A DNA stretch of 64,000 bases from a virus (taxonomy: Duplodnaviria > Heunggongvirae > Uroviricota > Caudoviricetes), in the IMG/VR virus record IMGVR_UViG_3300044693_000272; one strand, 5' to 3'. This document shows positions 3,660 through 61,662 of this stretch, one piece after another (position 1 is the stretch's first letter; every line of letters begins with the position of its first letter). The notes beneath the pieces are model-generated. The model saw nothing but the letters and a program-made list of their open reading frames with translations, was not told where the DNA came from and searched no databases. The translations under genes were made by a program, and so were the position numbers.

Positions 3660-4559
3660 TTATGGCAAAATTGCATCAAGAATAGCAACACAAGCTTTGG
3701 CAGTGCGAAGGTCGCCAGAATCACGCTCTGGATTATATTCGACCAATTCGAAGCCAATCAACTTGCGTTTGTTCATACTTTCAAATGTCCTTACTACATC
3801 AGATAGCCACAACCCACCATCTTCTGGTGAACCAACTCCTGGTGCATCAATAGGATCCAGACTATCAATGTCAAATGTGATGCCATAACCAACAGTTTCT
3901 TTTGAAACTATTTCAATAGCTTCGTCTAAGCAAACATCGAAACCACGGTCATGCACTTCTTCAATTCGCATAACGCGAACGCCAAGGCTTTCTAGTAGAT
4001 CTTCTTCACCCTTTTCACTGCTCCGTGCTCCGATCACCACTACATTTTGAGGACGTAGCTTTCGAACAACATCGTGTATGGTGGTGAGATTGCGGCTGCC
4101 ATACCCTAGAAGGCAGGCTAGAGGCATACCATGAGGAGCACCGCTTTCAGATGTTTGTGGAGTATGACTGTCAAGATGAGCATCAATCCAGATTAGACCA
4201 ATATCACCCATTGTTCGATAGAAATTAGCTATTGCACTCCAAGTGCCAATTGCACAGGAATGATCACCGCCAATTACGAGAGGGAAACGTTCTTTTGAGA
4301 GTGTAGAATGTACGGCATTGGCAAGTCTTGGCATATATTCTTCGACCACCGCCAATTTACCGTGTTCCAGCAAAGAAGCATCACTGGTTATAAAAGATCC
4401 CCATTGAAGGGGAATAGGAAGCTTTGAAATATGTTCTCGGAGTGCAAGAGGCCCTGATTTGCACTCCATGATCTGGGCGCCTTCGCCGATTGCTGCTAAA
4501 GTAATTTCGATATGTTGCACGACAATCTCCAGAAAATAATTGGCAAATGGCACAGACAT
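3660..4559 (-). CDS. arginase/agmatinase/formiminoglutamase-family ureohydrolase
   Basis: Binuclear-Mn signature motifs of the arginase fold: VIGGDHSCAIG, IWIDAHLDSHTP, SGAPHGMPLA. Confidence 0.7.
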   Translation of the reverse strand: MSVPFANYFLEIVVQHIEITLAAIGEGAQIMECKSGPLALREHISKLPIPLQWGSFITSDASLLEHGKLAVVEEYMPRLANAVHSTLSKERFPLVIGGDHSCAIGTWSAIANFYRTMGDIGLIWIDAHLDSHTPQTSESGAPHGMPLACLLGYGSRNLTTIHDVVRKLRPQNVVVIGARSSEKGEEDLLESLGVRVMRIEEVHDRGFDVCLDEAIEIVSKETVGYGITFDIDSLDPIDAPGVGSPEDGGLWLSDVVRTFESMNKRKLIGFELVEYNPERDSGDLRTAKACVAILDAILP

Positions 4560-5782: not shown

Positions 5783-6700
5783 TTACTTGAAGTCGTAGTA
5801 TGTCCACAACCCCTTGTTGCCTGCTTCGACCACTTGCCACTTCGGGTGCGTTCCAACAGTGTCCTTCAGATCAGGTAGTGCTTGTACTTCGCACTGGCGG
5901 AATCGCTTCAGACCATCGAGCATCTGAGCCGAACTGTAAACCCGCGAGACCATCAAAGCTTCCGTAGCAACCGTCGGTACACCACGCTGCCCAAGGTTAC
6001 CATAGCTGACACGCGCCGGCTTGTAAACCTTAGCCAGAATACCTTGTTGCTGCGGCGTGATCATGAGCAGCTTGAAGCGTTGATCAAGATTTGCGACGGT
6101 CGAGAGCGGTGCTCCACCGACAGCAATGAACGCGTCGATATTACCAGCTTGTAGCGCTTTCGAGGCTTCGTCGTTTGACGAGAACTTGACGATGTTGTAA
6201 TTGATCTTGGTCAACGCTTTGATCACTTCAGCAGTTAATGCTGATCCGCCGACGGCGCCAACGTTGTGACCATTCAGGTCACCAATGTTGTTGAAGATCA
6301 CTTGCTTGCCACCGATCGAGAAACCACCAAGGCTCACCCCACCTTCATGCACACCATCTGCTCGAGCGACGAAGTGGACTTCTTCGGGATACAAAGTAAA
6401 CAGGGTTCGCACATTGTTCAGATCATCTTCCGATCGCGAACGCCAGAATAGAGCATCAGTTTGCACGATCGCGGCGTTCACTTTGTTCTGTTCGAGCATG
6501 TCGAGGTTTGCATTCGAGCCATTAGAATTCACCTCACGCAGTGAAACACTCTGGCATCGGCCCGATAGTTCCTTGAACATCGTCGAGTATGTTAGCTTAG
6601 GATCGCCCGTTGCAACCACCAGCGACTGCGCTTGTGCAACCGATGAAAAGATGATCAGTGCTGTCAGCGAGCCGACGAGACTAGCGATGAAACGTTTCAT
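5783..6700 (-). CDS. secreted periplasmic solute-binding protein (PhnD/TAXI-like fold)
   Basis: N-terminal signal peptide MKRFIASLVGSLTALIIFSSVAQA; size about 305 aa and alternating beta/alpha pattern typical of type II SBPs; AAGGAG SD. Confidence 0.55.
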   Translation of the reverse strand: MKRFIASLVGSLTALIIFSSVAQAQSLVVATGDPKLTYSTMFKELSGRCQSVSLREVNSNGSNANLDMLEQNKVNAAIVQTDALFWRSRSEDDLNNVRTLFTLYPEEVHFVARADGVHEGGVSLGGFSIGGKQVIFNNIGDLNGHNVGAVGGSALTAEVIKALTKINYNIVKFSSNDEASKALQAGNIDAFIAVGGAPLSTVANLDQRFKLLMITPQQQGILAKVYKPARVSYGNLGQRGVPTVATEALMVSRVYSSAQMLDGLKRFRQCEVQALPDLKDTVGTHPKWQVVEAGNKGLWTYYDFK

Positions 6701-7813: not shown

Positions 7814-8446
7814 TTATTTGATTAATGGCAGTAATGCCGTGAATGCCTTCTTAATCTTGCCATCAGGAATTGCTAACGATGTAAGCGTATCAAAGCATTG
7901 CGAAATTTCTACTGAATCAACCATGTTATATTGTTTCAAGATTGAGTCTTTCAAAATTTGATGTCGTTCGGCAATTTTTGCCGCTTTGCTTACTTTTCGT
8001 GCTTCTTCATTCGCTCTTTTAGATTCAGCAGAATTAAGCTCTTGAATGATATTCTTTTCAAATATCTCCAAGAATGGTGGGAAATCACCTAAATTCTTTA
8101 CTGTGAATCGACGCTGGAGGTTCCAATGAGAAAAGAAACGATCATATTCTGTATAATGGTAGCCACCACGATAACCAGCTCGCGTTGATTTGACTTCAAT
8201 CATACCATTAGCAAATACATTCACGCGTAGGACAACATCAATCGTATCGTCTTCGTGTTTGAATGTATAACGGACATAGCAATCAACACCACGATGTGAT
8301 GGAGACAATCTAAATGAAGCAGAATCACGAATCTTCGCAATTTCAGTTACCACCCATTTCTGATCTTCAGACATGGGTTTACCGGTATTCTTTAATATTG
8401 CAGTAAGCAAGCTCTTTTCAGCTTTTGTCGATTTAGTTGTTATCAT
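7814..8446 (-). CDS. tandem paralog family A, member 1 (210 aa)
   Basis: N-terminus MITTKSTKAEKSLLTAIL and C-terminus ...AFTALLPLIK are shared with the next four genes. Confidence 0.5.
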   Translation of the reverse strand: MITTKSTKAEKSLLTAILKNTGKPMSEDQKWVVTEIAKIRDSASFRLSPSHRGVDCYVRYTFKHEDDTIDVVLRVNVFANGMIEVKSTRAGYRGGYHYTEYDRFFSHWNLQRRFTVKNLGDFPPFLEIFEKNIIQELNSAESKRANEEARKVSKAAKIAERHQILKDSILKQYNMVDSVEISQCFDTLTSLAIPDGKIKKAFTALLPLIK

Positions 8447-8447
8447 C

Positions 8448-9176
8448 TTATTTTGATTCATCCGCTTTGTACGGATCACCTTTCAGCAATTTGGCATATG
8501 TTTCGAATTGCTGTTTAACCACTCGCTTACCATGCCAACCGTATGATCGAAAGATCATATCATATGCCCAGTTCACGATTTCATTTTCAACGAAACCATG
8601 ACTTGCTAGGATGTCTTCTTTCATCTTTCGCAAGCGTTCTTTCTCTTTTTCTTCTCGGATTTTTATATCAACTATTCTTTTTTCAGCATCCTTGATTTCT
8701 CTTGCAACATTGGTGGTTAGTTCTTTAAACAGAGCATCCAAATCGATTTCGTCACGCTTTTCTGATTTGAACGTGTATGACACACTGGTATGTCCGGCGT
8801 AATAACATGAATCTGAGCCTTCGTAGAAATGTTGGCCGTCTTTGAAACCAGCTCGAATTGCTACTATGATTAATTGGCGAAAGTTCGGATTTCTACCAGG
8901 GCCCCAATACGGTTTATTTGATACTCTTACATTTAGAGTAACATTGATTGGAACTTTCTCTTTCTTTTTGCGATCGTAATATGACAGCTTTGTTGTGAAC
9001 GTCAATACTTCACAAATATTATTATTCCAAGGCATGTCCTGATCGGGATTGATGAACTTGAATTTACCAGTATGTTTTTCCGCCAATTGTTGAGCAACAT
9101 ATTTCAAGTCAGCGTCGATTGTGAAAGAAGAAGTAAGTACGGCAGTGAGCAAATCACCTTCAGTTTTTGATGCCAT
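8448..9176 (-). CDS. tandem paralog family A, member 2 (242 aa)
   Basis: MASKTEGDLLTAVL N-terminus; same architecture as neighbours. Confidence 0.5.
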   Translation of the reverse strand: MASKTEGDLLTAVLTSSFTIDADLKYVAQQLAEKHTGKFKFINPDQDMPWNNNICEVLTFTTKLSYYDRKKKEKVPINVTLNVRVSNKPYWGPGRNPNFRQLIIVAIRAGFKDGQHFYEGSDSCYYAGHTSVSYTFKSEKRDEIDLDALFKELTTNVAREIKDAEKRIVDIKIREEKEKERLRKMKEDILASHGFVENEIVNWAYDMIFRSYGWHGKRVVKQQFETYAKLLKGDPYKADESK

Positions 9177-9184
9177 GGTTATTA

Positions 9185-9817
9185 TTAGATTGAGGCTTTT
9201 AGCAAGGTCACAAGCTTCTTAAAGAGCTTTTCCTGCGCGGTTTTTTGTCGTTCGTATTTGGTGGCTATGTCAAATGCTAATTTAAAATCTTCATTATCTT
9301 TCAGATTATATGCCTTAATCCAAGTTTGTTTGCGTTGGATTTCTTCAGCTTCAATCTTGAGAATATAATCAATAAAACGTTTTGTTTTATCCTCAAATTC
9401 ATCAATCATTCCAATATAATTGACATTGGCTATTTCTGAGGCTTCAAGCAAATCATCTAGACAGCCGTAAACTGATCTACTATAACGTACTGGTCGATAT
9501 GATTGTTTACCAATCTTTAGTACATCAAGTATCATTTCAACTTTAGCTTCGTATTCGTCGTAATTGATGGCATGCAATGAACCATTCAATGTGTACTTGG
9601 CATCATTATAATTGAATTGATACTTGAATTTCACTTCTTCAAACCCAGAATTCTGATCGAATCCGTGGAGCGGCGTTTCGTCCCCTTCGGGGGCTATACT
9701 GAATATGAAATCACGATGCTTGATTAGTTCTTTTAGAACTGGGAAGAGATATTGATTGCCTTTTTCGGCACCTGATAGAATCAGTGCCAGCAATGCTGTT
9801 TCATGTTTCTTTGCCAT
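9185..9817 (-). CDS. tandem paralog family A, member 3 (210 aa)
   Basis: MAKKHETALLALIL ... KLVTLLKASI. Confidence 0.5.
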   Translation of the reverse strand: MAKKHETALLALILSGAEKGNQYLFPVLKELIKHRDFIFSIAPEGDETPLHGFDQNSGFEEVKFKYQFNYNDAKYTLNGSLHAINYDEYEAKVEMILDVLKIGKQSYRPVRYSRSVYGCLDDLLEASEIANVNYIGMIDEFEDKTKRFIDYILKIEAEEIQRKQTWIKAYNLKDNEDFKLAFDIATKYERQKTAQEKLFKKLVTLLKASI

Positions 9818-9885
9818 TTTGTATTTTTAAGTTGTCAGGCGTTGTGCGGCAAGTATAACATTTGCTAACACAAAGAAACAGACTT

Positions 9886-10569
9886 CTACTTCAGAAGTGG
9901 TAAGATCTTGCCAAATGCTTCACTGATTTTGTCAAAGGTACCAAGCTTACTAACTGCTTCGTACAAGGTTTCAATATTGGCTGGGGGCCTAGTGATGTGA
10001 ATATTGTACTTCTCGAAGACTTGTTGCTTCAAATTTATTGACTTCAGTGTACGAGCGTTTTTGCGTTGCTCGGTCTTGATTTTACGTGCTTTAGCATTGC
10101 TGCTGGCTACTGCGATCACGTCTTCTATATCATGTTCTTCAGCTAATCGAATTTTATTAAGCATCGTGCTAATAAGCCCTTGATATTCACCCAAAGATGT
10201 ACCAGGAATTATTGATTCCCAAACGTGCAGATGAAAATCGTAATGTGGCAAGCATTCACGGAATGCTTGCCCATCAACATAACCATATCTCTTGATGCTG
10301 AATATTAGACTACCAGAAAATCCTGCTACTTCTGCGGTGATGCGCACTTGTTTACCACTAGGGGTATCAAACGTGTAAGTGAAAGAGAGTTGTGAATCAC
10401 CTTCTTCGACAACCTTTGAAATCGATTTACCACTTCCTTTGATTTTGTGTAATTTGAACGACCCTTGAGGATTACGGGACGCCAACGCTTTACAGAACGC
10501 CTTCTCAAGGTCGTTTAGGTTATAGGAAAGGATTACTTTGACAAGTGAGGCTTCAGCTTTGCTGGCCAT
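9886..10569 (-). CDS. tandem paralog family A, member 4 (227 aa)
   Basis: ATG at 10569 (MASKAEASLVKVIL) after GGGGGT; C-terminus FGKILPLLK. Confidence 0.5.
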   Translation of the reverse strand: MASKAEASLVKVILSYNLNDLEKAFCKALASRNPQGSFKLHKIKGSGKSISKVVEEGDSQLSFTYTFDTPSGKQVRITAEVAGFSGSLIFSIKRYGYVDGQAFRECLPHYDFHLHVWESIIPGTSLGEYQGLISTMLNKIRLAEEHDIEDVIAVASSNAKARKIKTEQRKNARTLKSINLKQQVFEKYNIHITRPPANIETLYEAVSKLGTFDKISEAFGKILPLLK

Positions 10570-11275
10570 TTTTACCCCCAATCAATGGCAATAGCTCACC
10601 GAATGCTTTGCTGATTGCTTTTTCATTATTCAGCCTACTCAACACCTTGAACAGTAGTTCTGTTTCTGGTGTTGATGTGACATTGTGATTCTGAAACACC
10701 AATTGTTTCTTTCGATCTCGTGCAGAACTTCGTTGAACCCGTAAATTAGCACGTTGTTCTTCAGCTTCAGCCTTTTGCTGATCAAGCTTTTCCAAATAAG
10801 CTGGGATTTCATTCTCTGCTTTTTCAAACTTGGTGAAAACCGTTCTTATCGTGTCACCAAGTTTTATGGCATACACGTCATCAGAGCATCCTTCAGCACA
10901 CCAAAACGCGTCAGCACACCAAAATCTAGTGTGTCCTTGACTAATGTTGGTAATTGAAGGTTTGTTGCTTTTGTTGAAGCCACAAAAACTAATGCCCATA
11001 TGTGTGTTGATGTTTTTGGTGCTTTGTGGTGTCGCTACGACAACAACTTCAGCTTTATAGCTTTGACCGTCACGTTCAAATTTATATTTGAAACCGCACC
11101 TTGTACTCATCCTCGAGTTATACTTCCATTGACGGTCAGTGCTCGGATCGTATTCGTAAAACTCACCATCAGGATAACGCCGTGCCAATTCACCAGCCAG
11201 CATCTTCTCCAGACAATTGATGTCGATCGTAAGAGCCAATTTCAATAGGCTCTCTTCAGCTGCGGTAAGAATCAT
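10553..11275 (-). CDS. tandem paralog family A, member 5 (240 aa)
   Basis: MILTAAEESLLKLALT ... FGELLPLIGGK; its ATG overlaps the stop of the upstream gene (ATGA). Confidence 0.5.
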   Translation of the reverse strand: MILTAAEESLLKLALTIDINCLEKMLAGELARRYPDGEFYEYDPSTDRQWKYNSRMSTRCGFKYKFERDGQSYKAEVVVVATPQSTKNINTHMGISFCGFNKSNKPSITNISQGHTRFWCADAFWCAEGCSDDVYAIKLGDTIRTVFTKFEKAENEIPAYLEKLDQQKAEAEEQRANLRVQRSSARDRKKQLVFQNHNVTSTPETELLFKVLSRLNNEKAISKAFGELLPLIGGKNGQQS

Positions 11276-20501: not shown

Positions 20502-20579
20502 TGGTCTCCAGTGCAAGATTCGAACTTGCGTCCCATGGTCCCAAACCACGTATACTAACCAGACTATACTAACCGGAGA
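20502..20579 (-). tRNA. tRNA-Pro (anticodon UGG)
   Basis: Hand-folded cloverleaf on the minus strand: acceptor tctccgg/ctggaga, anticodon stem cgtgg/ccatg, loop tTTGGga, T-arm gcaag-ttcgaat-cttgc, 3' CCA encoded. Confidence 0.6.
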
Positions 20580-20619
20580 ACGGGGGCCAGCTTTCGCCAG
20601 CTGAGCTAATTCCCCAAAA
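20580..20619 (-). pseudogene. tRNA-like 5' fragment (acceptor plus D-arm only)
   Basis: Minus strand reads ggggaattagctcagctggcgaaagctgg..., a canonical tRNA 5' half with no matching 3' half before the next tRNA begins. Confidence 0.25.
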
Positions 20620-20694
20620 TGGTGCGTCTGGAGAGGGTTGAACTCCCGACCTTGGCCTTGTAAGGGCCCTGCTCTTCCACTGAGCTACAGACGC
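20620..20694 (-). tRNA. tRNA-Val (anticodon UAC)
   Basis: Hand-folded: acceptor gcgtctg/cagacgc, D-stem gctc/gagc, anticodon loop cTTACaa, T-arm gggag-ttcaacc-ctctc, CCA encoded. Confidence 0.65.
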
Positions 20695-29043: not shown

Positions 29044-29592
29044 TCATTCCACAAGCTTCAGATACTTTGCATCTACGGCATCAACCAGCCACACATCATT
29101 TGCTGACTTGTAGAAATCAACTTTATCAGCCAGCATAGCTTTAGAGTCAACTTCAATTACTACAGTTTTTCGAAACCGTTTCCGAGCCAGTTCAATGTCA
29201 GCAGTGAGATGAACGTGAGTACGTGTCATCTTATTGAGACCTTTCTTCTTGATGATCTCCCAAGCTTCGCTTGAAGTGCCGTGATACAAGATCACTGGCG
29301 GCACTGCTTTTTGCAACCCAGGATCAACATTAATGGAATGTCCTTGGTTTGCCCGAATTTTGGTGAAGTCTTCATTGAATGAATAACGGCCCTTCTGATC
29401 GTTAGCAACAATTCCTTTCAGGATTTCAAGATCAAATTCATAACCTGCTTTCTTGCCCGCCGCTATCACATCGTCTACTAGGATGAATGCTTGTTTGTCA
29501 ATTTTGACTTTTTGTTCTTTCGCACCATGTCGCAGCAAGTACGACAACCAAATACTATGCTTTTTGTACTTTTTATTGAAGTCTTCATTCAT
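29044..29592 (-). CDS. kptA: RNA 2'-phosphotransferase Tpt1/KptA
   Basis: Start at internal ATG (MNEDF), TAATG-coupled; motifs LSYLLRH, IRANQGHS, LYHGTSS, THVHL match the Tpt1 Arg-His-Arg-Arg and HGT signatures. Confidence 0.8.
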   Translation of the reverse strand: MNEDFNKKYKKHSIWLSYLLRHGAKEQKVKIDKQAFILVDDVIAAGKKAGYEFDLEILKGIVANDQKGRYSFNEDFTKIRANQGHSINVDPGLQKAVPPVILYHGTSSEAWEIIKKKGLNKMTRTHVHLTADIELARKRFRKTVVIEVDSKAMLADKVDFYKSANDVWLVDAVDAKYLKLVE

Positions 29593-29825
29593 TATTTTGG
29601 TATCCCATCTGTATATCCGAACACACCATAGCCACGCACACTCACCAAGTAAGTATCCCAACCAATGCGTTCATCTTTTCCTTGATGAAGGAATGCAATG
29701 TCGTCATGGCAAAAATGTGTCCCCATGCGTTCGTTAATTTCCGTCAACAAGTCTTCCTTCGTTTCGAAATTGAAGACCGTAGCCAGTGATTCGGCCAATC
29801 CACCACGATGTTCACGTGCTCGCAT
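29592..29825 (-). CDS. hypothetical protein (77 aa)
   Basis: GAGGGATATC SD; stop overlaps the Tpt1 start. Confidence 0.45.
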   Translation of the reverse strand: MRAREHRGGLAESLATVFNFETKEDLLTEINERMGTHFCHDDIAFLHQGKDERIGWDTYLVSVRGYGVFGYTDGIPK

Positions 29826-46831: not shown

Positions 46832-47941
46832 TCATTCACTTGGAGTGACTATCAAACTTTTCTGATTGAACTTTGAATCAACCCAAGAATTGATTCGTTT
46901 ACGTATTGGTGTCTCTACTCGCATATTGAGAATATGTGCTGAGACAATTGATAATGTAATATACAACACAGCAGCAATTACACGTTCAATAGTACCTGTT
47001 GTTATGGCAATAAACGTCGCAAAAGCCATAACTATGGCGGCATGGCTCAAATATAATGAATAAGAAATTCTACCCAAATATTGAGCAAAGCGACTATTGA
47101 GTAAAAGTGTCACTGGTCCGTTATTCATAGTTAGTGTCGCTATGAATAATGCAAACAATAATGGCGCAACACATGCTAAGCCTGGAATGCTATCAGCGAT
47201 TAGAATAAAGAGTAATGTACCGGTAAATATCGCTAATTGTATATTTGGTTTACAAAGACTGATCACAAATCGATGATTGCGATATTCGGCAAGCAGAGCA
47301 CCAATGAAGAAGCCAACTAGACCGCGTCCCCATCCAAAGTAATAGGTTTGTTCAAAACATCCGCCCTTAGTCAAACATGAACTAACAATTATCGACTGCC
47401 ATAAAGCAATCGAATAACCAAAAAGAGCAAATGCGATAAACGCAGCCGTTCTAATTTTTCCATGTAGGGAAATACAGAGTAGTGCGAATATACAGTAGAT
47501 CCAAAATTCAACACTGGCACTCCAACTTACTGCAATACCAATTACATTCGTGATAGCCAAACCTTGAAGAAACGTCGCAACACCTAATAGTTGAATAATG
47601 CTTGGTAATCGATATTCATGAAAGCTTGCGAGATATTGTAAGAAAAAATAAATGAAATTCGCAATCATGAATGCTGGCCACAATCTCCCAATTCGACGCA
47701 ATATAAAAGCACCAAAATCAGAATTATTTCTCAGCTTCGCTTTATATGAATCATATATTACGAAACCACTCAATACGAAGAACAAATCAACAGCCAAATA
47801 ACCGTTCTTTGAAAAAGAAAAGAAACTTGCGGCAGCACGAGAATTCGGTACAGCTTGCAATGACATATAAACATGAAGGAAGACAACAATTAAAGCGGCA
47901 AACCCGCGCAAGCCTTCAAGGCTATGAAGTCGGCCGCCCAT
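46832..47941 (-). CDS. acyltransferase family 3 integral membrane protein (OafA/YrhL-like)
   Basis: LEGLRGFAALIVVFLHV ... FFVLSGFVI plus about 10 TM helices; GAGGAGATGACAT ATG. Confidence 0.65.
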   Translation of the reverse strand: MGGRLHSLEGLRGFAALIVVFLHVYMSLQAVPNSRAAASFFSFSKNGYLAVDLFFVLSGFVIYDSYKAKLRNNSDFGAFILRRIGRLWPAFMIANFIYFFLQYLASFHEYRLPSIIQLLGVATFLQGLAITNVIGIAVSWSASVEFWIYCIFALLCISLHGKIRTAAFIAFALFGYSIALWQSIIVSSCLTKGGCFEQTYYFGWGRGLVGFFIGALLAEYRNHRFVISLCKPNIQLAIFTGTLLFILIADSIPGLACVAPLLFALFIATLTMNNGPVTLLLNSRFAQYLGRISYSLYLSHAAIVMAFATFIAITTGTIERVIAAVLYITLSIVSAHILNMRVETPIRKRINSWVDSKFNQKSLIVTPSE

Positions 47942-51362: not shown

Positions 51363-51641
51363 CTATGCGACCAAATGAACCGTAAGATAATCTATAAAGC
51401 TTTTGAAATACACTTGATATGGTCTTCTATCATTAGATCGCTCACAGATCACATCGCCGCGCAATCCTCGATATAAAAGGTGAAAAGCATGGTTATCGAA
51501 CCTAAAACCTTCGCTGAAAGTCAAACGAACAATGACTTCAGGTTTGAAACCATGCTCTAGTTCAAAGTCATGAATCTTCTGTTGACGACCCAGAAAGGCA
51601 AGTGTGGGATCGAGATATTCTTCAAGAGTCCAAGCAATCAT
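51363..51641 (-). CDS. divergent C-terminal-motif family member (92 aa)
   Basis: Ends FIDYLTVHLVA. Confidence 0.4.
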   Translation of the reverse strand: MIAWTLEEYLDPTLAFLGRQQKIHDFELEHGFKPEVIVRLTFSEGFRFDNHAFHLLYRGLRGDVICERSNDRRPYQVYFKSFIDYLTVHLVA

Positions 51642-52150
51642 ACATTCGCCCGATCTGCTAACGCCTGAAGAACAAATGGGTGAATGTATTTTGCCACTTT
51701 TTCTTCCCAGTTGTTAATTCCGACAAACCCTCGCACAGCTGATGAGCTGATACGCGTGATATCTTCGGGAGGAATTACAAAGACATGGTCGATGCTATTT
51801 TCAATATCTGCGTTGAAACCCTGAATATCTTTCTCGTAACCAAAGTCAACAGCATTGCGAATGCCACGCATGATGGTGGTAACACCTAGATGCTTCGCCA
51901 CGCTGACCGTGAATTCATTTTCAATCACTACAAACTTCAACTTTTCGAACAGCTCAGATGTGAGTGAGTCAGCCAACACTCGCCGTGCCAGTTCCTCACG
52001 TTCGATCGAATTGAACATTCCCTTCTTTGCTGGATTGTAAGCAATCGCAAAGTAGACTTCATCGAATGTGCGACAAGCACGCTCGACCATCCATTCATGC
52101 CCTCGTGTGATTGGATCGAACGACCCAGTAACCATACCGATCGTATACAT
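51638..52150 (-). CDS. CoaD-like nucleotidyltransferase (phosphopantetheine adenylyltransferase family)
   Basis: GSFDPITRGHEWMV matches the (H/T)xGH motif GTFDPITNGH; RGIRNAVDFGYE matches RGLRAVADFEYE; start chosen at the ATG that TAATG-overlaps the upstream stop. Confidence 0.6.
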   Translation of the reverse strand: MYTIGMVTGSFDPITRGHEWMVERACRTFDEVYFAIAYNPAKKGMFNSIEREELARRVLADSLTSELFEKLKFVVIENEFTVSVAKHLGVTTIMRGIRNAVDFGYEKDIQGFNADIENSIDHVFVIPPEDITRISSSAVRGFVGINNWEEKVAKYIHPFVLQALADRANV

Positions 52151-53385
52151 TAGACCCAACGCTCCCATTTCTTGATAAGTGTGTCCAAGTTTGCACGTGC
52201 ATTATCTTCGAGATGTGCAAAGTGCGATGATTGAAAAACTTTTGGTCGACGCAAAAATGTCTTCAATACAGAAACCCGGCCTCTAGCAAATGTTCGAATT
52301 TCATACTCATTTTTGAACTCCTGATATACTGCGTCATCAAATGCTTCAGCCTCCTCGGGAGTTCCACCCAACATCATCAAGTCCACATCAAGAAACAATT
52401 CACAATCGTTTTTCAACTTAGGATTGGCTTTCAAGAAATGCGAAGAAGCCGAATGCGTTTTCGTACTCATGATGTATTCAGCAGCAACTGCGAGTGATGG
52501 GATACCATCTTCAATTTCAAATCGCAATGCTTCTGGCATAATTGCTTTGAATTGATCAATCATGAACTTAACGCTTTGAGATTCATTATGTGGATACAGA
52601 GTCTTATACGTACTGTATACCACATCATGATAGATAATCGCAATACCGGCAATGCTAGGATAGTTGAATTTGTCAAGATTCGACATAAACCATCGATACA
52701 TAGCAAGTGGGTGATCTGCATTATGCCAGTGCCGATCAAAACCGTGATATTGTTTCATCGCATTGTCGAACAATTCACCAGCTTCCTTTTCTTTTTTGTA
52801 AAAAGCGCTTTGGAAGAATAAACGTAGATCTTTTCGAGCAATGTTACCAGCAATGCGTTTAGCTTCAGTTTCAAGCTCTTCAAGCGAAACATTAGTGTCA
52901 ATTGTTTCATCCGACATTGCCGACTTCACAATAGTACTGAGTTGCGCACCACGAATCTTTGCGATTTTTTCGGCAGTGAAGCCATCACGTGCAATCACAC
53001 GTTTTTCTTGCGTCTCATCGTCGCACATACACGTGATGATGAAATCGTATTTGTCATTATTGCACATTTCAAACAACAGAGGAAATTCAACTACGATGTG
53101 ATTCTGACTGTCGATTTTTATCATTCGCAACCGCATGTGCGTTTTCACCAAATCTTCAAGCCATTTACGTTGCTCTGGGTCGTTGAATACGATATCCGAT
53201 ATTTGCTTGCGATCATCCGTTCCGAATTGTTCCTTCAGTTCTTTAGCAAATTCGGTGTTCTTATAAAGCTCGTGAACCATCTCATCGATGCTTGCTTGAG
53301 TGTAATTTGGTGTAAGATGTTTCACCAATAGTTTCGTGAATGTGGATTTTCCACAGCCAATGTTACCGGTAATCGCGATCCGCAT
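52150..53385 (-). CDS. two-domain protein: N-terminal CoaE-like P-loop kinase and C-terminal HD-domain phosphohydrolase
   Basis: MRIAITGNIGCGKSTF is a Walker A as in dephospho-CoA kinase (LTGGIGSGKST); C-terminal RHWHNADH ... IIYHDVVYS ... DVDLMMLG carries the HD-domain His/Asp pattern. Confidence 0.55.
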   Translation of the reverse strand: MRIAITGNIGCGKSTFTKLLVKHLTPNYTQASIDEMVHELYKNTEFAKELKEQFGTDDRKQISDIVFNDPEQRKWLEDLVKTHMRLRMIKIDSQNHIVVEFPLLFEMCNNDKYDFIITCMCDDETQEKRVIARDGFTAEKIAKIRGAQLSTIVKSAMSDETIDTNVSLEELETEAKRIAGNIARKDLRLFFQSAFYKKEKEAGELFDNAMKQYHGFDRHWHNADHPLAMYRWFMSNLDKFNYPSIAGIAIIYHDVVYSTYKTLYPHNESQSVKFMIDQFKAIMPEALRFEIEDGIPSLAVAAEYIMSTKTHSASSHFLKANPKLKNDCELFLDVDLMMLGGTPEEAEAFDDAVYQEFKNEYEIRTFARGRVSVLKTFLRRPKVFQSSHFAHLEDNARANLDTLIKKWERWV

Positions 53386-53483
53386 TGATGCTCCTTTATT
53401 CGTTTTTGATGATCAAGCTACCATAAGCCATTCATTTATTCATTGTATGACAAATCATACCAAATGTAAAGCCGCCAAATGGC

Positions 53484-53510
53484 AGATGGCCCCATATGGG
53501 GCCATCTTTT
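53484..53510. terminator. hairpin of the GATGGCC family after the ligase-like gene
   Basis: agatggcccc-atat-ggggccatct then TTTTAC. Confidence 0.45.
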
Positions 53511-53515
53511 ACAGC

Positions 53516-54085
53516 TTAGTACGGAAAGTCAGCTTTCTTGATTTTCACAAGGCGACCATCTTCGTGATGCCAAACAATGCCTTCGATAGGCTTGTCTCGC
53601 AACCATTCTTTGATGCCATCAAACGTGCGCGGGCAATCTTCTAAGATATCCTTACCGTGAGGAACAAGAATGTGTTCGGTCAAACCTTCAGGATTAGCAC
53701 CGTGACGTGTCCCAATTTTGGGACCACACGCTTCATATGTGCCATCAGGGATTCCACCGGCAAACTTGTTCTTCTGCGCCCATTCGACAGCTTCTCGAAT
53801 GTACTTCGATTCCGGGCCTTCAGCGGGAACCCAACCAGGCCAGTGCCCGCTTTTCGGATCAGGGTTAGGTTGGGCAGGAATGAAGTCAACGGGAGGTGTT
53901 CTCCCAGTCTTAGCGTCGTAACGCTTAAAGACTTGACCATCCTTTACCAACACAGCCACGCCATCCCATTTACGAGTAGCGTAACCTTCACCCTGAACAA
54001 CCCATTCAGCACCCGGAGTAACTTCGTCACGAACCTTACGATCCCCTTCGTAGTTACGTTGAAACAACGACATGATTTTCTTCAT
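53516..54085 (-). CDS. minimal covalent nucleotidyltransferase (ATP-dependent RNA/DNA ligase-like)
   Basis: Start trimmed to MKKIMSLFQ (AAGGAGCAGTTC ATG); ATRKWDGVAVLVKDG is motif I (KxDG), EGIVWHHEDGRLVKIKK resembles motifs IV/V. Confidence 0.55.
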   Translation of the reverse strand: MKKIMSLFQRNYEGDRKVRDEVTPGAEWVVQGEGYATRKWDGVAVLVKDGQVFKRYDAKTGRTPPVDFIPAQPNPDPKSGHWPGWVPAEGPESKYIREAVEWAQKNKFAGGIPDGTYEACGPKIGTRHGANPEGLTEHILVPHGKDILEDCPRTFDGIKEWLRDKPIEGIVWHHEDGRLVKIKKADFPY

Positions 54086-54136
54086 GAACTGCTCCTTAAA
54101 AGTGATGAGATAGTTTTCGAGTCCCATCAACGCCAC

Positions 54137-58030: not shown

Positions 58031-58447
58031 TCAAGCGTTTTTGTCTTTTGCTGCTCTACGTTTGGCTGCGCGTTCAGTTGCTTCATGGGAAGTTTTGGCA
58101 GTATGACATGGTTCGCATAGCGTCTGCAAGTTTGGTAGTCGCCAGTAGTCCAAGTTTCCTTGAGCTTCCACGAGTGGTTTGATGTGATCCATGTGCCAAG
58201 GATTCTGGTAACGGTCGCACTTGGCACCACATTGATTACACTTTGCTCGATCGCGTTTGTACACTGCGCGACGGGTAGTGGCGGGCCAGAACAACAGTTT
58301 GTATTCAGCTAGACAGGCAGGATGCCAGCGTGATTTGCTTTGCTTGCCCTTAGGCGTTAGACCAACTTCTTGATTGCACCAACGACAAGTGCCTTCTGGC
58401 ACTGTATCGAAATATGGTGGCTTTGGAGGTGTACGGTGAGCACCCAT
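58031..58447 (-). CDS. HNH endonuclease
   Basis: CRWC ... HMDHIKP ... NLQTLCEPCHTAKT. Confidence 0.6.
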   Translation of the reverse strand: MGAHRTPPKPPYFDTVPEGTCRWCNQEVGLTPKGKQSKSRWHPACLAEYKLLFWPATTRRAVYKRDRAKCNQCGAKCDRYQNPWHMDHIKPLVEAQGNLDYWRLPNLQTLCEPCHTAKTSHEATERAAKRRAAKDKNA

Positions 58448-58494: not shown

Positions 58495-58863
58495 TTAGCC
58501 TGCGTGACGTGTAACGAAATTAATTCGAGTACGTTGTGGAGCAAAATACTTGTTAACCATGTCGATCACTGTTTGCTGATCATATTCTCGACAGGAAAAT
58601 ACGTCGAAGTAAGCAGTGCCATCGAGGTCCATAAAATGCCCGCAAATGTTGGAGGTCGTGATGAGCTGCATCAGGCTATAGCCCTGCTTTGGATCGCCTG
58701 GCAACAGATATTCGATGATAGGCTCGCCGTGCGCTTCCATATCGATAGCGACGACTAGTTCCTTGATGAAGTTGTAGATTGCTTCCTTGCTACCAATGCC
58801 ACCGTCAACTTTACAACCTGCACAGTCCAGCATGAGGTGATAACCCCAGAATTTGTTATCCAT
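58495..58863 (-). CDS. S-adenosylmethionine decarboxylase-like protein (SpeH/SpeD class 1 fold)
   Basis: WGYHLMLDCAGC ... EAHGEPII ... LITTSNICGHFMD ... YFDVFSC parallels bacterial AdoMetDC (G.HL..ELYGC ... LLAESHITIHTWPE ... IDIFTCG); the Glu-Ser cleavage pair is Thr-Ser here. Confidence 0.5.
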   Translation of the reverse strand: MDNKFWGYHLMLDCAGCKVDGGIGSKEAIYNFIKELVVAIDMEAHGEPIIEYLLPGDPKQGYSLMQLITTSNICGHFMDLDGTAYFDVFSCREYDQQTVIDMVNKYFAPQRTRINFVTRHAG

Positions 58864-59506: not shown

Positions 59507-60271
59507 TCAATGCTGGCGATACGTAAGGTTATTGTAAATCTCGTTATCGCAGATGTCTTCGCCTACATTGCGAAACACATAGACATTTCTACCCGAAAAG
59601 AACATTTCCATAGCTATGTCATCTACACGTGGATGTACGATAGCACCGTTAGGCGTGAGGAATGGGTTAAGAATGAAGTCCCAATCATTATGTCCCCAAT
59701 GCTTAAGGTGGGTAATATCGCCAGGAGTATCATTCAATCCTTCACGCAATACATAGTTGATTCTAATTTTGGAGAACGATGCGTAATGCATGGATACGGA
59801 TTCCAAAATCCGATAAATCGGATCAGATTTTGGAATCATCTTATCACGAATCGACTGATTAAAAGTGTGCATCGACACCTGTAACTCAGCAGGGAAAGTG
59901 GTAGTATCAAGAAAACGTATCCGGCGGGATGCAACCCCACTTATCGAATAACGAACTGATGTGATCGGTATGCTAAGAGTGTAGAGGGTTGATAAAGCAT
60001 TGCTCACATTCTCGGTGTTAAAGAGAACATCACCCTCGCCAGTAAATGAAAGAACAAATGGGTGATTTGGTGCATTTTTGACCACCAAATCAACAATCTC
60101 ATCAGCAGTGAGATTACGAACAAATTTATTGGTAGTTGATACGCAAAATGAACAACCGACCGGACAACCAATCTGCGTTGGAACACTTAGGACATTTTTA
60201 TTACCAGCACTGACATTCAGTACTGGCACGCTGATGTCTTTGATTGGTATGTGCCGAAGATAAACGCTCAC
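59507..60271 (-). CDS. radical SAM domain protein (254 aa), GTG start
   Basis: GCPVGCSFC is the CxxxCxxC cluster motif; SFTGEGDVLF is a glycine-rich SAM-binding segment; the start is GTG 3 nt after the upstream stop. Confidence 0.55.
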   Translation of the reverse strand: MSVYLRHIPIKDISVPVLNVSAGNKNVLSVPTQIGCPVGCSFCVSTTNKFVRNLTADEIVDLVVKNAPNHPFVLSFTGEGDVLFNTENVSNALSTLYTLSIPITSVRYSISGVASRRIRFLDTTTFPAELQVSMHTFNQSIRDKMIPKSDPIYRILESVSMHYASFSKIRINYVLREGLNDTPGDITHLKHWGHNDWDFILNPFLTPNGAIVHPRVDDIAMEMFFSGRNVYVFRNVGEDICDNEIYNNLTYRQH

Positions 60272-60866: not shown

Positions 60867-61235
60867 TTATTCAAAAAGTAAAATCGTCTGAGTTGCCACC
60901 AACATAGCAGCAAGTAATGGGTGGTGCGCGCAAAACAACATCAAATATGTTTCCACTAATGTGAAAGCTAAATGGAATAAAAAATCAATTGGTGTGGCCG
61001 GAGCAAAAGAAATATCAGGCTGTTCACCATTACTTGCTGCCCAACGCAAATAGTAATTACGAGCAATGACACCAATAATCGTAATGCCCAGCATAGTTAT
61101 TACCAGCCAAACCCATACTACCTCGGCCCAGGCGATATCCAAGCCCAACCACATAATTGGAAGTGCAATGTGCGCAGTCCATATGATCCTGGTCAATGCG
61201 GTAGTTTTTTCGTTGATTTCAGACATTGAATACAT
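60867..61235 (-). CDS. integral membrane protein (122 aa)
   Basis: Four hydrophobic helices. Confidence 0.5.
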   Translation of the reverse strand: MYSMSEINEKTTALTRIIWTAHIALPIMWLGLDIAWAEVVWVWLVITMLGITIIGVIARNYYLRWAASNGEQPDISFAPATPIDFLFHLAFTLVETYLMLFCAHHPLLAAMLVATQTILLFE

Positions 61236-61662
61236 ACTCCATTTTACCAGGTCGGTATAAACCTTTTTCCACCTTACTCAAGATGAAGTCGAAATGATTA
61301 ATGAATGCTCGACTATACATATGAAACATTTCTTCGGCAACAGTACAACTTGGTTTGTCATTATCAAGTAGCTTCAACATCCGCTCAATCAAATGCAATC
61401 CTGTTCCTTTATTTTGATATTCAGGTAAAACTCGAACACACCGCAGCTTTGTTTCTTCAGCTGTCTGCTTGCCTAGAGCAACACCAATCACCCTACCATT
61501 ATCCTTTGATAACAACATAATGTCATTGCCTGTAACCAGGCCTGGCATCATCTGGTTGATATACCAGTATTCAAAGTCAGGGTAAAGTTGATCCAATCCT
61601 TTCAACAACGGAAGCACACTAAATGCTTCAACAAAGGACTTTGAATTGTGATACTCAATCAT
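61219..61662 (-). CDS. GNAT family N-acetyltransferase
   Basis: VRVLPEYQNKGTGLHLIERM matches GNAT motif A (V.P.YQ.KGIG..L). Confidence 0.5.
   Translation of the reverse strand: MIEYHNSKSFVEAFSVLPLLKGLDQLYPDFEYWYINQMMPGLVTGNDIMLLSKDNGRVIGVALGKQTAEETKLRCVRVLPEYQNKGTGLHLIERMLKLLDNDKPSCTVAEEMFHMYSRAFINHFDFILSKVEKGLYRPGKMEYVFNV

What the first reader, a model, noticed from the sequence alone, without database searches (positions are those of the whole stretch)
3660..4559. Phage-borne arginase/agmatinase-family enzyme (polyamine or arginine metabolism)
Clear ureohydrolase motifs (GGDHS, DAHLD, SxxxHG) are present. Together with the AdoMetDC-like gene at 58495-58863 this suggests the phage manipulates putrescine and spermidine supply. 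Polyamines are needed for DNA packaging and translation, so this is a plausible auxiliary metabolic function. I do not know of a phage described with both genes.
Basis: partly seen in the sequence, partly recalled or inferred. Interest (0 to 1): 0.6.

Follow-up and report, generated by a model that had tools for sequence, protein, structure and literature searches.

The report
Megaphage arginase paired with ornithine decarboxylase
A roughly 524-kb phage carries an intact arginase gene and a small decarboxylase gene that together could turn the host's arginine into putrescine; arginase had been found in giant eukaryotic viruses but not in phages.

Summary
Window 3660-4559 (minus strand) is an intact arginase-family gene. 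All six Mn ligands, the catalytic His and the catalytic Glu are present. The likely start is the GTG at 4520, giving 286 aa.

The best reading is arginase, not agmatinase:
- It scores best against the arginase model and against solved arginases.
- It keeps the arginase-only loop.
- It belongs to a Burkholderiales subfamily. Of its 80 best bacterial loci, 37 have an ornithine aminotransferase or ornithine cyclodeaminase gene directly adjacent.

The contig is a 523,572-bp phage genome whose neighbouring genes match jumbo phages of Ralstonia, Burkholderia and Achromobacter.

The "AdoMetDC-like" gene at 58495-58863 carries the Gln/Thr/Phe/Tyr signature published for pyruvoyl ornithine decarboxylases (SpeDC) and lacks the AdoMetDC proline. 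The pair therefore most likely makes putrescine (arginine to ornithine to putrescine), not spermidine.

Both genes also occur, in the same order, on a diverged 523,836-bp sister phage genome.

A 2023 survey found no arginase in phages. This is a new member of a known kind, and moderately interesting. Neither enzyme activity has been tested.

The parts
3660..4520 (-). Arginase-family gene, 286 aa from the probable GTG start. The longest ORF extends to the ATG at 4559 (299 aa).
   Evidence: Pfam PF00491, E = 2e-56. Best NCBIfam model is rocF_arginase, 173.7 bits. Best solved relative is B. caldovelox arginase, E = 2e-46. AF2 model pLDDT 90.2, and the top 50 PDB fold matches are all arginases. 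Residue equivalents in rat arginase I numbering, ORF numbering first: Mn ligands H100 (H101), D126 (D124), H128 (H126), D130 (D128), D230 (D232), D232 (D234); catalytic H143 (H141) and E274 (E277). All are invariant in 16 homologs.
4521..4535 (-). Ribosome-binding site: GGAG (4527-4530 on the plus strand as CTCC), 6 nt upstream of the GTG at 4520.
   Evidence: Read directly from the sequence. The start position agrees with homologs.
58495..58863 (-). SpeD-like pyruvoyl decarboxylase, 122 aa, predicted to be an L-ornithine decarboxylase (SpeDC type).
   Evidence: Pfam PF02675, E = 1.5e-16. S71, H76 and C91 have the spacing of T. maritima S63, H68 and C83. The central region MQLITTSNICGHFMDLDGTAYFDVFSC contains the four SpeDC-diagnostic residues Gln, Thr, Phe and Tyr and lacks the AdoMetDC Pro.
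5783..6700 (-). Secreted TAXI/NMT1_3-like solute-binding protein, conserved upstream of the arginase in related phages. A functional link is not shown.
   Evidence: Pfam NMT1_3, E = 2.8e-11; phrog_6856, E = 7e-47. NCBIfam TRAP_TAXI 65 bits. 81% identical and syntenic in the sister genome. Homologs were found only in jumbo phages of Ralstonia and Achromobacter.

Best explanation
[quoted passage not shown] It sits in a roughly 524-kb phage that probably infects a member of the Burkholderiales. The phage lineage acquired the gene once from such a host and has kept it.

The phage's SpeD-like protein is predicted to process itself into a pyruvoyl enzyme that decarboxylates ornithine. The two phage enzymes would then form a self-contained route from arginine to putrescine during infection. 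The host's own ornithine decarboxylase could also use the ornithine. Putrescine would serve translation and the neutralisation and packaging of a very large genome.

Shown here: the fold, the intact catalytic residues, the family placement, the phage context, the co-occurrence of the two genes in two diverged genomes, and the operon context of the bacterial relatives.

Inferred: the substrate of each enzyme, that they act in sequence, and what the putrescine is used for.
For: Catalytic machinery is intact and conserved.

Arginase rather than agmatinase:
- rocF_arginase scores 173.7 bits, against 83-90 for the agmatinase models and 81 for hutG.
- All 43 best PDB sequence hits and the top 50 fold hits are arginases.
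- The protein keeps the loop TSESGAPHGMP carrying the His141 and Ser137 equivalents. A true phage agmatinase (MaAM05 SpeB, 23% identical) lacks this loop.

Context in bacteria:
- The subfamily motifs GGDHSCA and WIDAHLD(S/A) gave at least 550 loci in GTDB genomes, mostly Burkholderiales.
- Of the best 80 loci, 22 have an adjacent same-strand ornithine-oxo-acid transaminase (TIGR01885, 466.7 bits against a cutoff of 378.4).
- A further 15 have an adjacent ornithine cyclodeaminase (NF005762, 553.9 bits against a cutoff of 350).
- The four closest bacterial relatives of the phage enzyme are among the 22 with the transaminase.

Phage residency:
- The exact protein lies on a 523,572-bp contig.
- Neighbouring genes match jumbo phages RP12, RP31, FLC, phiRSL1, RsoM2USA and Motura.
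- The sister genome is an IMG/VR viral genome.
- The gene's GC content is 44.6%, against 44.1% for the window and 63-74% for bacterial homologs.
- The eight closest metagenome homologs form one clade nested in Burkholderiales sequences; phage-like context was checked for four of them.

Partner enzyme:
- The SpeDC signature is present.
- phiN3 gp163, a proven AdoMetDC, differs at the Thr position.

Co-occurrence:
- IMGVR_UViG_3300037418_001546 (523,836 bp) has the arginase at 63% identity and the SpeD-like gene at 86%. They are on the same strand, in the same order, and both neighbourhoods are syntenic.
- Run SRR23815405 holds both genes on two contigs, each syntenic with the window.

Precedents:
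- Klosneuvirus encodes arginase plus ODC.
- Fusobacterium has a natural ODC/arginase fusion (PDB 8d27).
Against: No activity has been measured.

The protein, and its whole bacterial subfamily, score below the curated cutoff of the rocF_arginase equivalog: 168-194 bits against 227.6.

Three residues that recognise the amino-acid end of arginine in rat and human arginase differ, and the differences are invariant in the subfamily: Asn130 to His132, Asn139 to Ala141, and Asp183 to Glu182. No member of the subfamily is known to me to have been characterised.

Ten of the 80 bacterial loci (Thiobacillus group) have succinate-semialdehyde dehydrogenase as the neighbour instead. That would suit a guanidinobutyrase-like role in that branch.

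The two phage genes are 54 kb apart (42 kb in the sister genome), so they are not an operon.

The positions of the four SpeDC-diagnostic residues come from text and a figure legend. I could not see the figure or obtain a characterised SpeDC sequence.

A proven AdoMetDC (phiN3) is the nearest GenBank phage homolog, at 34.5% identity. It also scores low on the AdoMetDC model.

Only 64 kb of about 524 kb was inspected, so a spermidine or homospermidine synthase elsewhere in the genome is not excluded.
Confidence: 0.6

Rival explanations
1. It is an arginase, but not for polyamines. The phage would deplete arginine or redirect nitrogen, for example by feeding ornithine to the host's ornithine cyclodeaminase or aminotransferase to make proline and glutamate. 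It could also release urea, or starve the host or competing phages of arginine. The SpeD-like gene would be functionally unrelated.
For: In bacteria this subfamily sits in catabolic operons with ornithine cyclodeaminase or ornithine aminotransferase, not with polyamine genes. The two phage genes are 42-54 kb apart. The SpeD-like family is spread over at least 197 IMG/VR stretches that lack this arginase.
Against: Both genes are retained together in two genomes whose shared proteins have diverged to between 27% and 89% identity. Arginase followed by ODC is the shortest known route to putrescine, and giant viruses use it.
Confidence: 0.2
2. It is an agmatinase or another guanidino-compound hydrolase (for example guanidinobutyrase or N1-aminopropylagmatine ureohydrolase). 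The SpeD-like protein would then be an arginine decarboxylase, giving arginine to agmatine to putrescine.
For: Three arginine-recognition residues differ from canonical arginases. The score is below the arginase equivalog cutoff. Phage SpeD homologs with ADC activity exist (HTVC201P). Microcystis phage MaAM05 has a SpeD-homolog plus agmatinase cluster. The Thiobacillus branch neighbours succinate-semialdehyde dehydrogenase.
Against: Agmatinase models score less than half the arginase model. The arginase-specific loop and the acidic pair E182/E185, which binds the alpha-amino group, are retained. The nearest bacterial relatives neighbour ornithine-consuming enzymes. The SpeD-like protein has the ODC signature rather than the ADC signature.
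Confidence: 0.12
3. It is an arginase, and the SpeD-like protein is a genuine AdoMetDC. The phage would then boost both ornithine or putrescine and decarboxylated AdoMet for spermidine synthesis, using a host or distant phage spermidine synthase.
For: The nearest GenBank phage homolog, phiN3 gp163, is a proven AdoMetDC within the ODC clade. It shares the Gln, Phe and Tyr positions with the window protein.
Against: The window protein has Thr-Ser-Asn where phiN3 has Asp-Ser-His, and it lacks the AdoMetDC Pro. No spermidine synthase was found in the window. From general knowledge, Burkholderiales typically contain putrescine and 2-hydroxyputrescine rather than spermidine.
Confidence: 0.15
4. It is not a phage gene: the contig is bacterial, a megaplasmid, or a chimeric assembly.
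For: No capsid, terminase or tail gene lies in the 64-kb window.
Against: - The window holds about 130 short ORFs, almost all on one strand and mostly without known families, plus homing endonucleases and two tRNAs.
- Several genes match only jumbo phages.
- The sister genome is listed as a viral genome in IMG/VR.
- The gene's GC content equals that of its surroundings.
- Synteny around the gene holds in four independent assemblies.
Confidence: 0.04

Closest known systems
Bacterial arginase RocF (for example Bacillus caldovelox, PDB 1cev/2cev)
   Same: Same fold (TM 0.87, rmsd 2.2 A, 35% identity). Same six Mn ligands, catalytic His and Glu, and the arginase loop.
   Different: Asn130 is His, Asn139 is Ala and Asp183 is Glu. 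There is a Cys after GGDHS. The score is below the TIGR01229 cutoff. The gene is encoded by a phage.
Uncharacterised Burkholderiales 'arginase' subfamily, found in arginase-ornithine cyclodeaminase and ornithine aminotransferase-arginase operons (Rhodoferax, Variovorax, Ralstonia, Robbsia, Piscinibacterium)
   Same: 44-56% identity. All subfamily-specific residues are shared. The phage clade nests within it.
   Different: The phage copies are shorter at the C-terminus, have 44-50% GC against 63-74%, and have no ornithine-catabolic neighbour.
Klosneuvirus KNV1 arginase plus ODC (Li et al. 2023, PMC9992855)
   Same: A virus-encoded two-step route from arginine to putrescine. The arginase is biochemically proven there.
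   Different: That is a eukaryotic giant virus with a PLP-dependent ODC. Here it is a bacteriophage with a pyruvoyl (SpeD-derived) decarboxylase.
Phage pyruvoyl ornithine decarboxylases (SpeDC: LBP, UCP01-04; Li et al. 2023, PMC9992855 and PMC10407285)
   Same: Size (117-122 aa), phage origin, Ser/His/Cys processing residues and the Gln/Thr/Phe/Tyr signature.
   Different: Direct sequence comparison with the characterised proteins was not possible. None of them was reported together with an arginase.
Microcystis phage MaAM05 cluster speH_2-speH_1-speE-speB (MW495066)
   Same: A jumbo phage combining SpeD homologs with a ureohydrolase.
   Different: There the ureohydrolase is a true agmatinase (TIGR01230, 293.7 bits against a cutoff of 174.3), the genes are clustered, and a spermidine synthase and a canonical AdoMetDC are present. 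It is 23% identical to the window protein.

Membership tests
Ureohydrolase (arginase) superfamily, Pfam PF00491 | Domain match above the gathering score, and the alpha/beta arginase fold | tested here: met
   191.9 bits against a cutoff of 22. AF2 model pLDDT 90.2, TM 0.87 to 2cev.
Ureohydrolase (arginase) superfamily, Pfam PF00491 | Six binuclear-Mn ligands (rat H101, D124, H126, D128, D232, D234) | tested here: met
   H100, D126, H128, D130, D230 and D232 are all present and invariant in 16 homologs.
Arginase (EC 3.5.3.1, RocF) | Catalytic His141 and Glu277 on arginase-type loops | tested here: met
   H143 in SGAPHGMP and E274 in ELVEYNP. The loop is absent from a true agmatinase.
Arginase (EC 3.5.3.1, RocF) | Canonical recognition of the alpha-carboxylate and alpha-amino groups (rat N130, T135, S137, N139, D183, E186) | tested here: inconclusive
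   S137 and E186 are kept. T135 is Ser and D183 is Glu (conservative changes). N130 is His and N139 is Ala. The residue roles are from my knowledge of rat and human arginase structures.
Arginase (EC 3.5.3.1, RocF) | Score above the NCBIfam TIGR01229 equivalog cutoff | tested here: not met
   173.7 bits against 227.6. The bacterial subfamily members also fall short at 188.7 and 193.5 bits.
Arginase (EC 3.5.3.1, RocF) | Genomic association with ornithine-using enzymes (in the bacterial relatives) | tested here: met
   37 of 80 loci have an adjacent ornithine aminotransferase or ornithine cyclodeaminase, both above their equivalog cutoffs.
Arginase (EC 3.5.3.1, RocF) | Hydrolysis of L-arginine to ornithine and urea | not testable with these tools
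   Needs an enzyme assay.
Agmatinase (SpeB) | Score above the TIGR01230 or NF002564 cutoffs | tested here: not met
   83.3 bits against 174.3, and 90 bits against 302.
Pyruvoyl ornithine decarboxylase SpeDC (for the partner gene 58495-58863) | Processing and catalytic residues Ser, His (+5) and Cys (+20), as in T. maritima S63, H68 and C83 | tested here: met
   S71, H76 and C91, invariant in 14 of 14 aligned homologs; the surrounding core motif is conserved across the 120 top homologs.
Pyruvoyl ornithine decarboxylase SpeDC (for the partner gene 58495-58863) | Four diagnostic residues Gln, Thr, Phe and Tyr in the central region, and absence of the AdoMetDC Pro (PMC10407285) | tested here: met
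   Q66, T70, F77 and Y85, with no Pro. The exact logo positions are inferred from the text, because the figure was not viewable.
AdoMetDC class 1b (SpeD/SpeH) | Score above the TIGR03330 cutoff, and the ESH...HT(W/Y)PE motif | tested here: not met
   29.4 bits against 75.65. The motif is TSN...GHFMD. Caveat: the proven AdoMetDC of phiN3 also scores only 28.9 bits.

The most novel reading that the evidence does not exclude
A lineage of roughly 524-kb phages carries the first bacteriophage arginase. With a pyruvoyl ornithine decarboxylase it would form a complete, PLP-independent, phage-encoded route from arginine to putrescine.

The arginase belongs to a biochemically uncharacterised subfamily with a rebuilt substrate-recognition site (His/Ala/Glu in place of Asn/Asn/Asp).

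A bolder extension, not tested here: the putrescine is needed in bulk, either as counter-ion for packaging half a megabase of DNA or for a putrescine-containing DNA modification. I recall such a modification (alpha-putrescinylthymine) from phage phiW-14, which infects a Burkholderiales host.
Probability: 0.5. Interest if true: 0.6.

Novelty: new member of a known kind. Interest (0 to 1): 0.45.

Why it matters
Polyamines are needed for phage replication. The systematic survey of viral polyamine genes (Li et al. 2023) found arginase only in giant eukaryotic viruses and explicitly none in phages.

If the two activities are confirmed, this lineage would show that very large phages can carry a whole arginine-to-putrescine route built from a Mn arginase and a cofactor-free pyruvoyl decarboxylase. 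That would parallel, by different enzymes, what Klosneuvirus does.

It would also give a first functional handle on a large, uncharacterised Burkholderiales arginase subfamily with altered substrate-binding residues.

The finding is not a new kind of biology. Both enzyme families and the pathway logic are known.

Tried and rejected
- **Close DNA relatives in GenBank phages:** none found.
- **tblastn of the arginase against GenBank phages:** only 7 weak records, all at or below 35% identity. They are tiny or unannotated records, or genes annotated hutG or agmatinase. PHROGs has no family for it.
- **Linking the SpeD-like protein to the characterised phage ODCs by accession:** cluster members carry no accessions, and the paper's supplement holds no sequences. 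The PDB has no detectable relative.
- **A wrong interim inference, later corrected:** the sister contig was absent from the top-120 lists for the SpeD-like protein and the RNA ligase. I first took this to mean the sister genome lacked that module. The IMG/VR scan showed the opposite.
- **Metagenome scan with the SpeD-like protein:** this collection did not return the window's own contig. It gave only unrelated freshwater contigs with no arginase, speE or speB in their flanks.
- **Sigma-70 promoter scan around the gene:** not above chance, 12 sites against 9.0 +/- 2.5 expected. A TATAAT just upstream of the ATG at 4559 has no good -35 element and is not claimed.
- **Literature searches:** searches for a phage arginase, or for characterisation of the Burkholderiales subfamily, returned nothing relevant beyond Li et al..
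- **Low AdoMetDC model score:** rejected as evidence against AdoMetDC function, because the proven phiN3 enzyme scores equally low.

Full report
**1. What is there**

The longest ORF at 3660-4559 (minus strand, 299 aa) is the only long ORF over that stretch. It matches Pfam Arginase PF00491 at E = 2e-56 almost end to end.

Aligned with Bacillus caldovelox arginase (1cev, E = 2e-46), every first-shell Mn ligand is present: H100, D126, H128, D130, D230 and D232. So are the catalytic His (H143, rat H141) and Glu (E274, rat E277). All are invariant in an alignment of 16 phage and bacterial homologs.

An AlphaFold2 model is confident (pLDDT 90.2, pTM 0.90). Its 50 best PDB matches are all arginases, the best being 2cev at TM 0.87.

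The annotated start is probably too early. A GTG at 4520 is preceded by GGAG at a spacing of 6 nt. Homologs start there. Residues 1-13 are disordered in the model. The 286-aa version scores identically on Pfam.

**2. Which ureohydrolase**

Among NCBIfam models the arginase equivalog is by far the best (173.7 bits). The agmatinase models score 83-90 bits and formimidoylglutamase 81 bits. All are below their curated cutoffs, however. The same holds for the protein's relatives.

The protein keeps the arginase-specific loop TPQTSESGAPHGMP. A genuine phage agmatinase, MaAM05 SpeB, lacks this loop in pairwise alignment.

Three residues that contact the amino-acid end of arginine in rat and human arginase differ. 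I take those residue roles from my knowledge of those structures.
- Asn130 is His132.
- Asn139 is Ala141.
- Asp183 is Glu182.

Ser137 (S139) and Glu186 (E185) are kept. These states are invariant across the whole clade, so this is a distinct subfamily rather than a decayed copy.

**3. What the subfamily does in bacteria**

The subfamily motifs recovered at least 550 loci in GTDB genomes. Most are Burkholderiales (Rhodoferax, Variovorax, Ralstonia, Robbsia, Janthinobacterium, Thiobacillus), plus Legionellales.

In Rhodoferax the gene overlaps an upstream ornithine cyclodeaminase gene behind an Lrp/AsnC-type regulator. In Robbsia it overlaps a class-III aminotransferase gene.

Among the 80 best loci:

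| Directly adjacent, same-strand neighbour | Loci | Model score against cutoff |
|---|---|---|
| Ornithine-oxo-acid transaminase (TIGR01885) | 22 | 466.7 against 378.4 |
| Ornithine cyclodeaminase (NF005762) | 15 | 553.9 against 350 |
| Succinate-semialdehyde dehydrogenase (Thiobacillus branch) | 10 | TIGR01780 (subfamily model), 719.8 against 646.35 |

The four bacterial sequences closest to the phage enzyme (52-56% identity) all have the transaminase.

Adjacency to two different ornithine-consuming enzymes is good contextual evidence that the product is ornithine. That makes the enzyme an arginase. The Thiobacillus branch is a caveat, because specificity may vary within the family.

**4. Is it phage-borne**

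The exact protein is on JGI contig Ga0466959_0000001, 523,572 bp.

The window holds about 130 short ORFs, almost all on one strand and mostly without families. It also has HNH and GIY-YIG homing endonucleases and two tRNAs.

Several genes have their best or only GenBank matches in jumbo phages of Burkholderiales hosts:
- RNA ligase: 73% identical to Ralstonia phages RP12 and RP31, and also matching FLC and Burkholderia phage FLC9.
- HD-domain protein: Ralstonia phage RsoM2USA.
- TAXI-like binding protein: RP12, RP31, FLC, phiRSL1 and Achromobacter phage Motura.

A sister genome of 523,836-523,837 bp is listed in IMG/VR as a viral genome.

The arginase gene has 44.6% GC, like the window (44.1%) and unlike its bacterial homologs (63-74%). 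This argues against a chimeric assembly or a recent capture.

The eight closest metagenome homologs (P0001-P0008) form one clade nested among Burkholderiales sequences in a neighbour-joining tree without bootstraps. Phage-like context was verified for four of them. This fits a single old acquisition from a host of that order. No virion gene lies inside the 64-kb window, so the phage assignment rests on the points above.

**5. The partner gene**

The ORF at 58495-58863 (minus strand, 122 aa) matches Pfam AdoMet_dc. It scores only 29.4 bits on the AdoMetDC equivalog against a cutoff of 75.65 and has no PDB relative.

Li et al. showed that some phage SpeD homologs are true AdoMetDCs, including Sinorhizobium phage phiN3. 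Others are pyruvoyl ornithine or arginine decarboxylases (PMC9992855). They also reported that the ornithine decarboxylases (SpeDC) are recognised by four conserved residues, Gln, Thr, Phe and Tyr, in the central region. Bona fide AdoMetDCs have an invariant Pro there (PMC10407285).

The central regions compare as follows:

| Protein | Central region | Note |
|---|---|---|
| Window protein | MQLITTSNICGHFMDLDGTAYFDVFSC | All four SpeDC residues, no Pro |
| phiN3 gp163 (proven AdoMetDC) | VQVLQDSHSSAHF...FYFDCFSC | Asp, not Thr, before the Ser |
| MaAM05 SpeH2 | ESH...HTWPE | Canonical AdoMetDC motif |

In the window protein S71, H76 and C91 have the spacing of T. maritima S63, H68 and C83. The four diagnostic residues are in the expected order. 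The core is almost invariant in 120 homologs and in 79 of 80 IMG/VR hits.

I therefore read this protein as an ornithine decarboxylase, with real uncertainty. I could not view the logo or obtain a characterised SpeDC sequence. The low model score is not discriminating, because phiN3 scores 28.9 bits.

No spermidine or homospermidine synthase was found in the window.

**6. Are the two genes linked**

They are 54 kb apart, so they are not an operon.

The sister genome IMGVR_UViG_3300037418_001546 carries both. Its arginase is 63% identical and its SpeD-like gene 86% identical. They lie about 42 kb apart, on the same strand and in the same order. Both neighbourhoods are syntenic, while the shared proteins range from 27% to 89% identity.

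A third relative is suggested by run SRR23815405. One contig there is syntenic with the arginase region and another with the SpeD region.

The arginase subfamily was found in just one of the IMG/VR contigs. The SpeD-like family occurs in at least 197 stretches there, and in many unrelated freshwater contigs. So the decarboxylase is a common phage gene, and the arginase is the rare addition in this lineage.

**7. Mechanism proposed**

[quoted passage not shown] The self-processed pyruvoyl enzyme, and possibly the host's own decarboxylase, converts ornithine to putrescine.

The same logic is proven for Klosneuvirus, which has arginase plus a PLP-dependent ODC. It is also hard-wired in the Fusobacterium ODC/arginase fusion protein (8d27).

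The uses of the putrescine (translation, DNA condensation for a very large genome, possibly DNA modification) are inference only.

**8. Comparison with what is known, and novelty**

Li et al. 2023 screened virus proteomes and found arginase homologs in 11 Imitervirales and one Algavirales genome 'but none in phage'. They found only one phage agmatinase homolog. My searches of GenBank phages, PHROGs and the paper library found no phage arginase either.

A GenBank jumbo phage, Microcystis phage MaAM05, has a speH_2-speH_1-speE-speB cluster with a true agmatinase. A ureohydrolase next to SpeD homologs in a phage therefore already exists in the databases, although via agmatine and with spermidine synthase.

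The present case is a new member of known kinds: an arginase, a pyruvoyl ODC, and a viral arginine-to-putrescine route. It is the first in a phage and comes from an uncharacterised arginase subfamily.

**9. Verdict**

| Claim | Confidence |
|---|---|
| Intact catalytic ureohydrolase of the arginase clade, encoded by a phage | about 0.9 |
| Substrate is L-arginine | about 0.7 |
| Partner gene is an ornithine decarboxylase | about 0.65 |
| Whole picture as stated | about 0.6 |

Interest is moderate (0.45). It is a tidy, testable extension of recent work rather than a surprise of principle.

Noticed in passing
window 5783-6700 (-): A secreted TAXI/NMT1_3-like solute-binding protein with a signal peptide, 1.2 kb upstream of the arginase and 81% identical in the sister genome. 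GenBank homologs occur only in jumbo phages of Ralstonia and Achromobacter (RP12, RP31, FLC, phiRSL1, Motura). Related phage contigs L007 and L008 also carry an SBP_bac_3+LysM protein near the arginase. Whether these bind arginine or ornithine is unknown.
   Followed up: partly
window 51638-54136 (-) and 29044-29661 (-): A CoaD-like cytidylyltransferase-family gene (51638-52168) and a CoaE (dephospho-CoA kinase) fused to a phosphohydrolase-like C-terminal half (52150-53385) sit next to an RNA ligase (53516-54136). A Tpt1/KptA RNA 2'-phosphotransferase lies at 29044-29661. Together they suggest an RNA-repair or cofactor module. The RNA ligase and the CoaE fusion are conserved in the sister genome (89% and 66%).
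   Followed up: partly
window 59507-60271 (-): A truncated RlmN/Cfr-like radical-SAM protein (254 aa; 82 bits on the RlmN model, far below the cutoff) lies 0.65 kb upstream of the SpeD-like gene. It is 47% identical in the sister genome.
   Followed up: no
window 61219-61662 (-): A small GNAT acetyltransferase lies 2.4 kb from the SpeD-like gene. Phage spermidine N-acetyltransferases are known (Li et al. 2023), but only generic GNAT matches were obtained here.
   Followed up: no
window 58031-58447 (-): An HNH homing-endonuclease gene lies immediately downstream of the SpeD-like gene. It is also present in relative L092 (70% identical). In L091 a GIY-YIG gene is inserted between the SpeD-like gene and the HNH homolog, suggesting mobile-element traffic around this gene.
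   Followed up: no
window 7814-11275 (-): A run of five genes of about 210-240 aa with no family match shows weak cross-similarity: several window proteins hit the same sister-genome genes at 24-34% identity. This may be a fast-evolving paralog array between the HD_4 gene and the binding-protein gene.
   Followed up: no
window 20502-20694 (-): Two adjacent tRNA genes, tRNA-Pro(TGG) and tRNA-Val(TAC).
   Followed up: no
L094 (Microcystis phage MaAM05, MW495066.1, 246315-249093): A cluster of speH_2 (canonical AdoMetDC motif), speH_1 (AESH...HSF, no Pro, ADC-like), speE and speB (true agmatinase). This is a possible complete phage-encoded arginine-to-spermidine route. It did not appear in the papers I searched.
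   Followed up: partly
L059, L067, L074, L081, L087, L088 (Thiobacillus and Hydrogenophilales arginase-subfamily loci): In this branch the arginase-like gene is adjacent to succinate-semialdehyde dehydrogenase rather than an ornithine-using enzyme. This hints at a different substrate, for example 4-guanidinobutyrate, within the same subfamily.
   Followed up: no
window 46832-47941 (-): A 369-aa membrane acyltransferase (Acyl_transf_3; PHROG O-acetyltransferase / O-antigen acetylase). It may modify the host surface.
   Followed up: no
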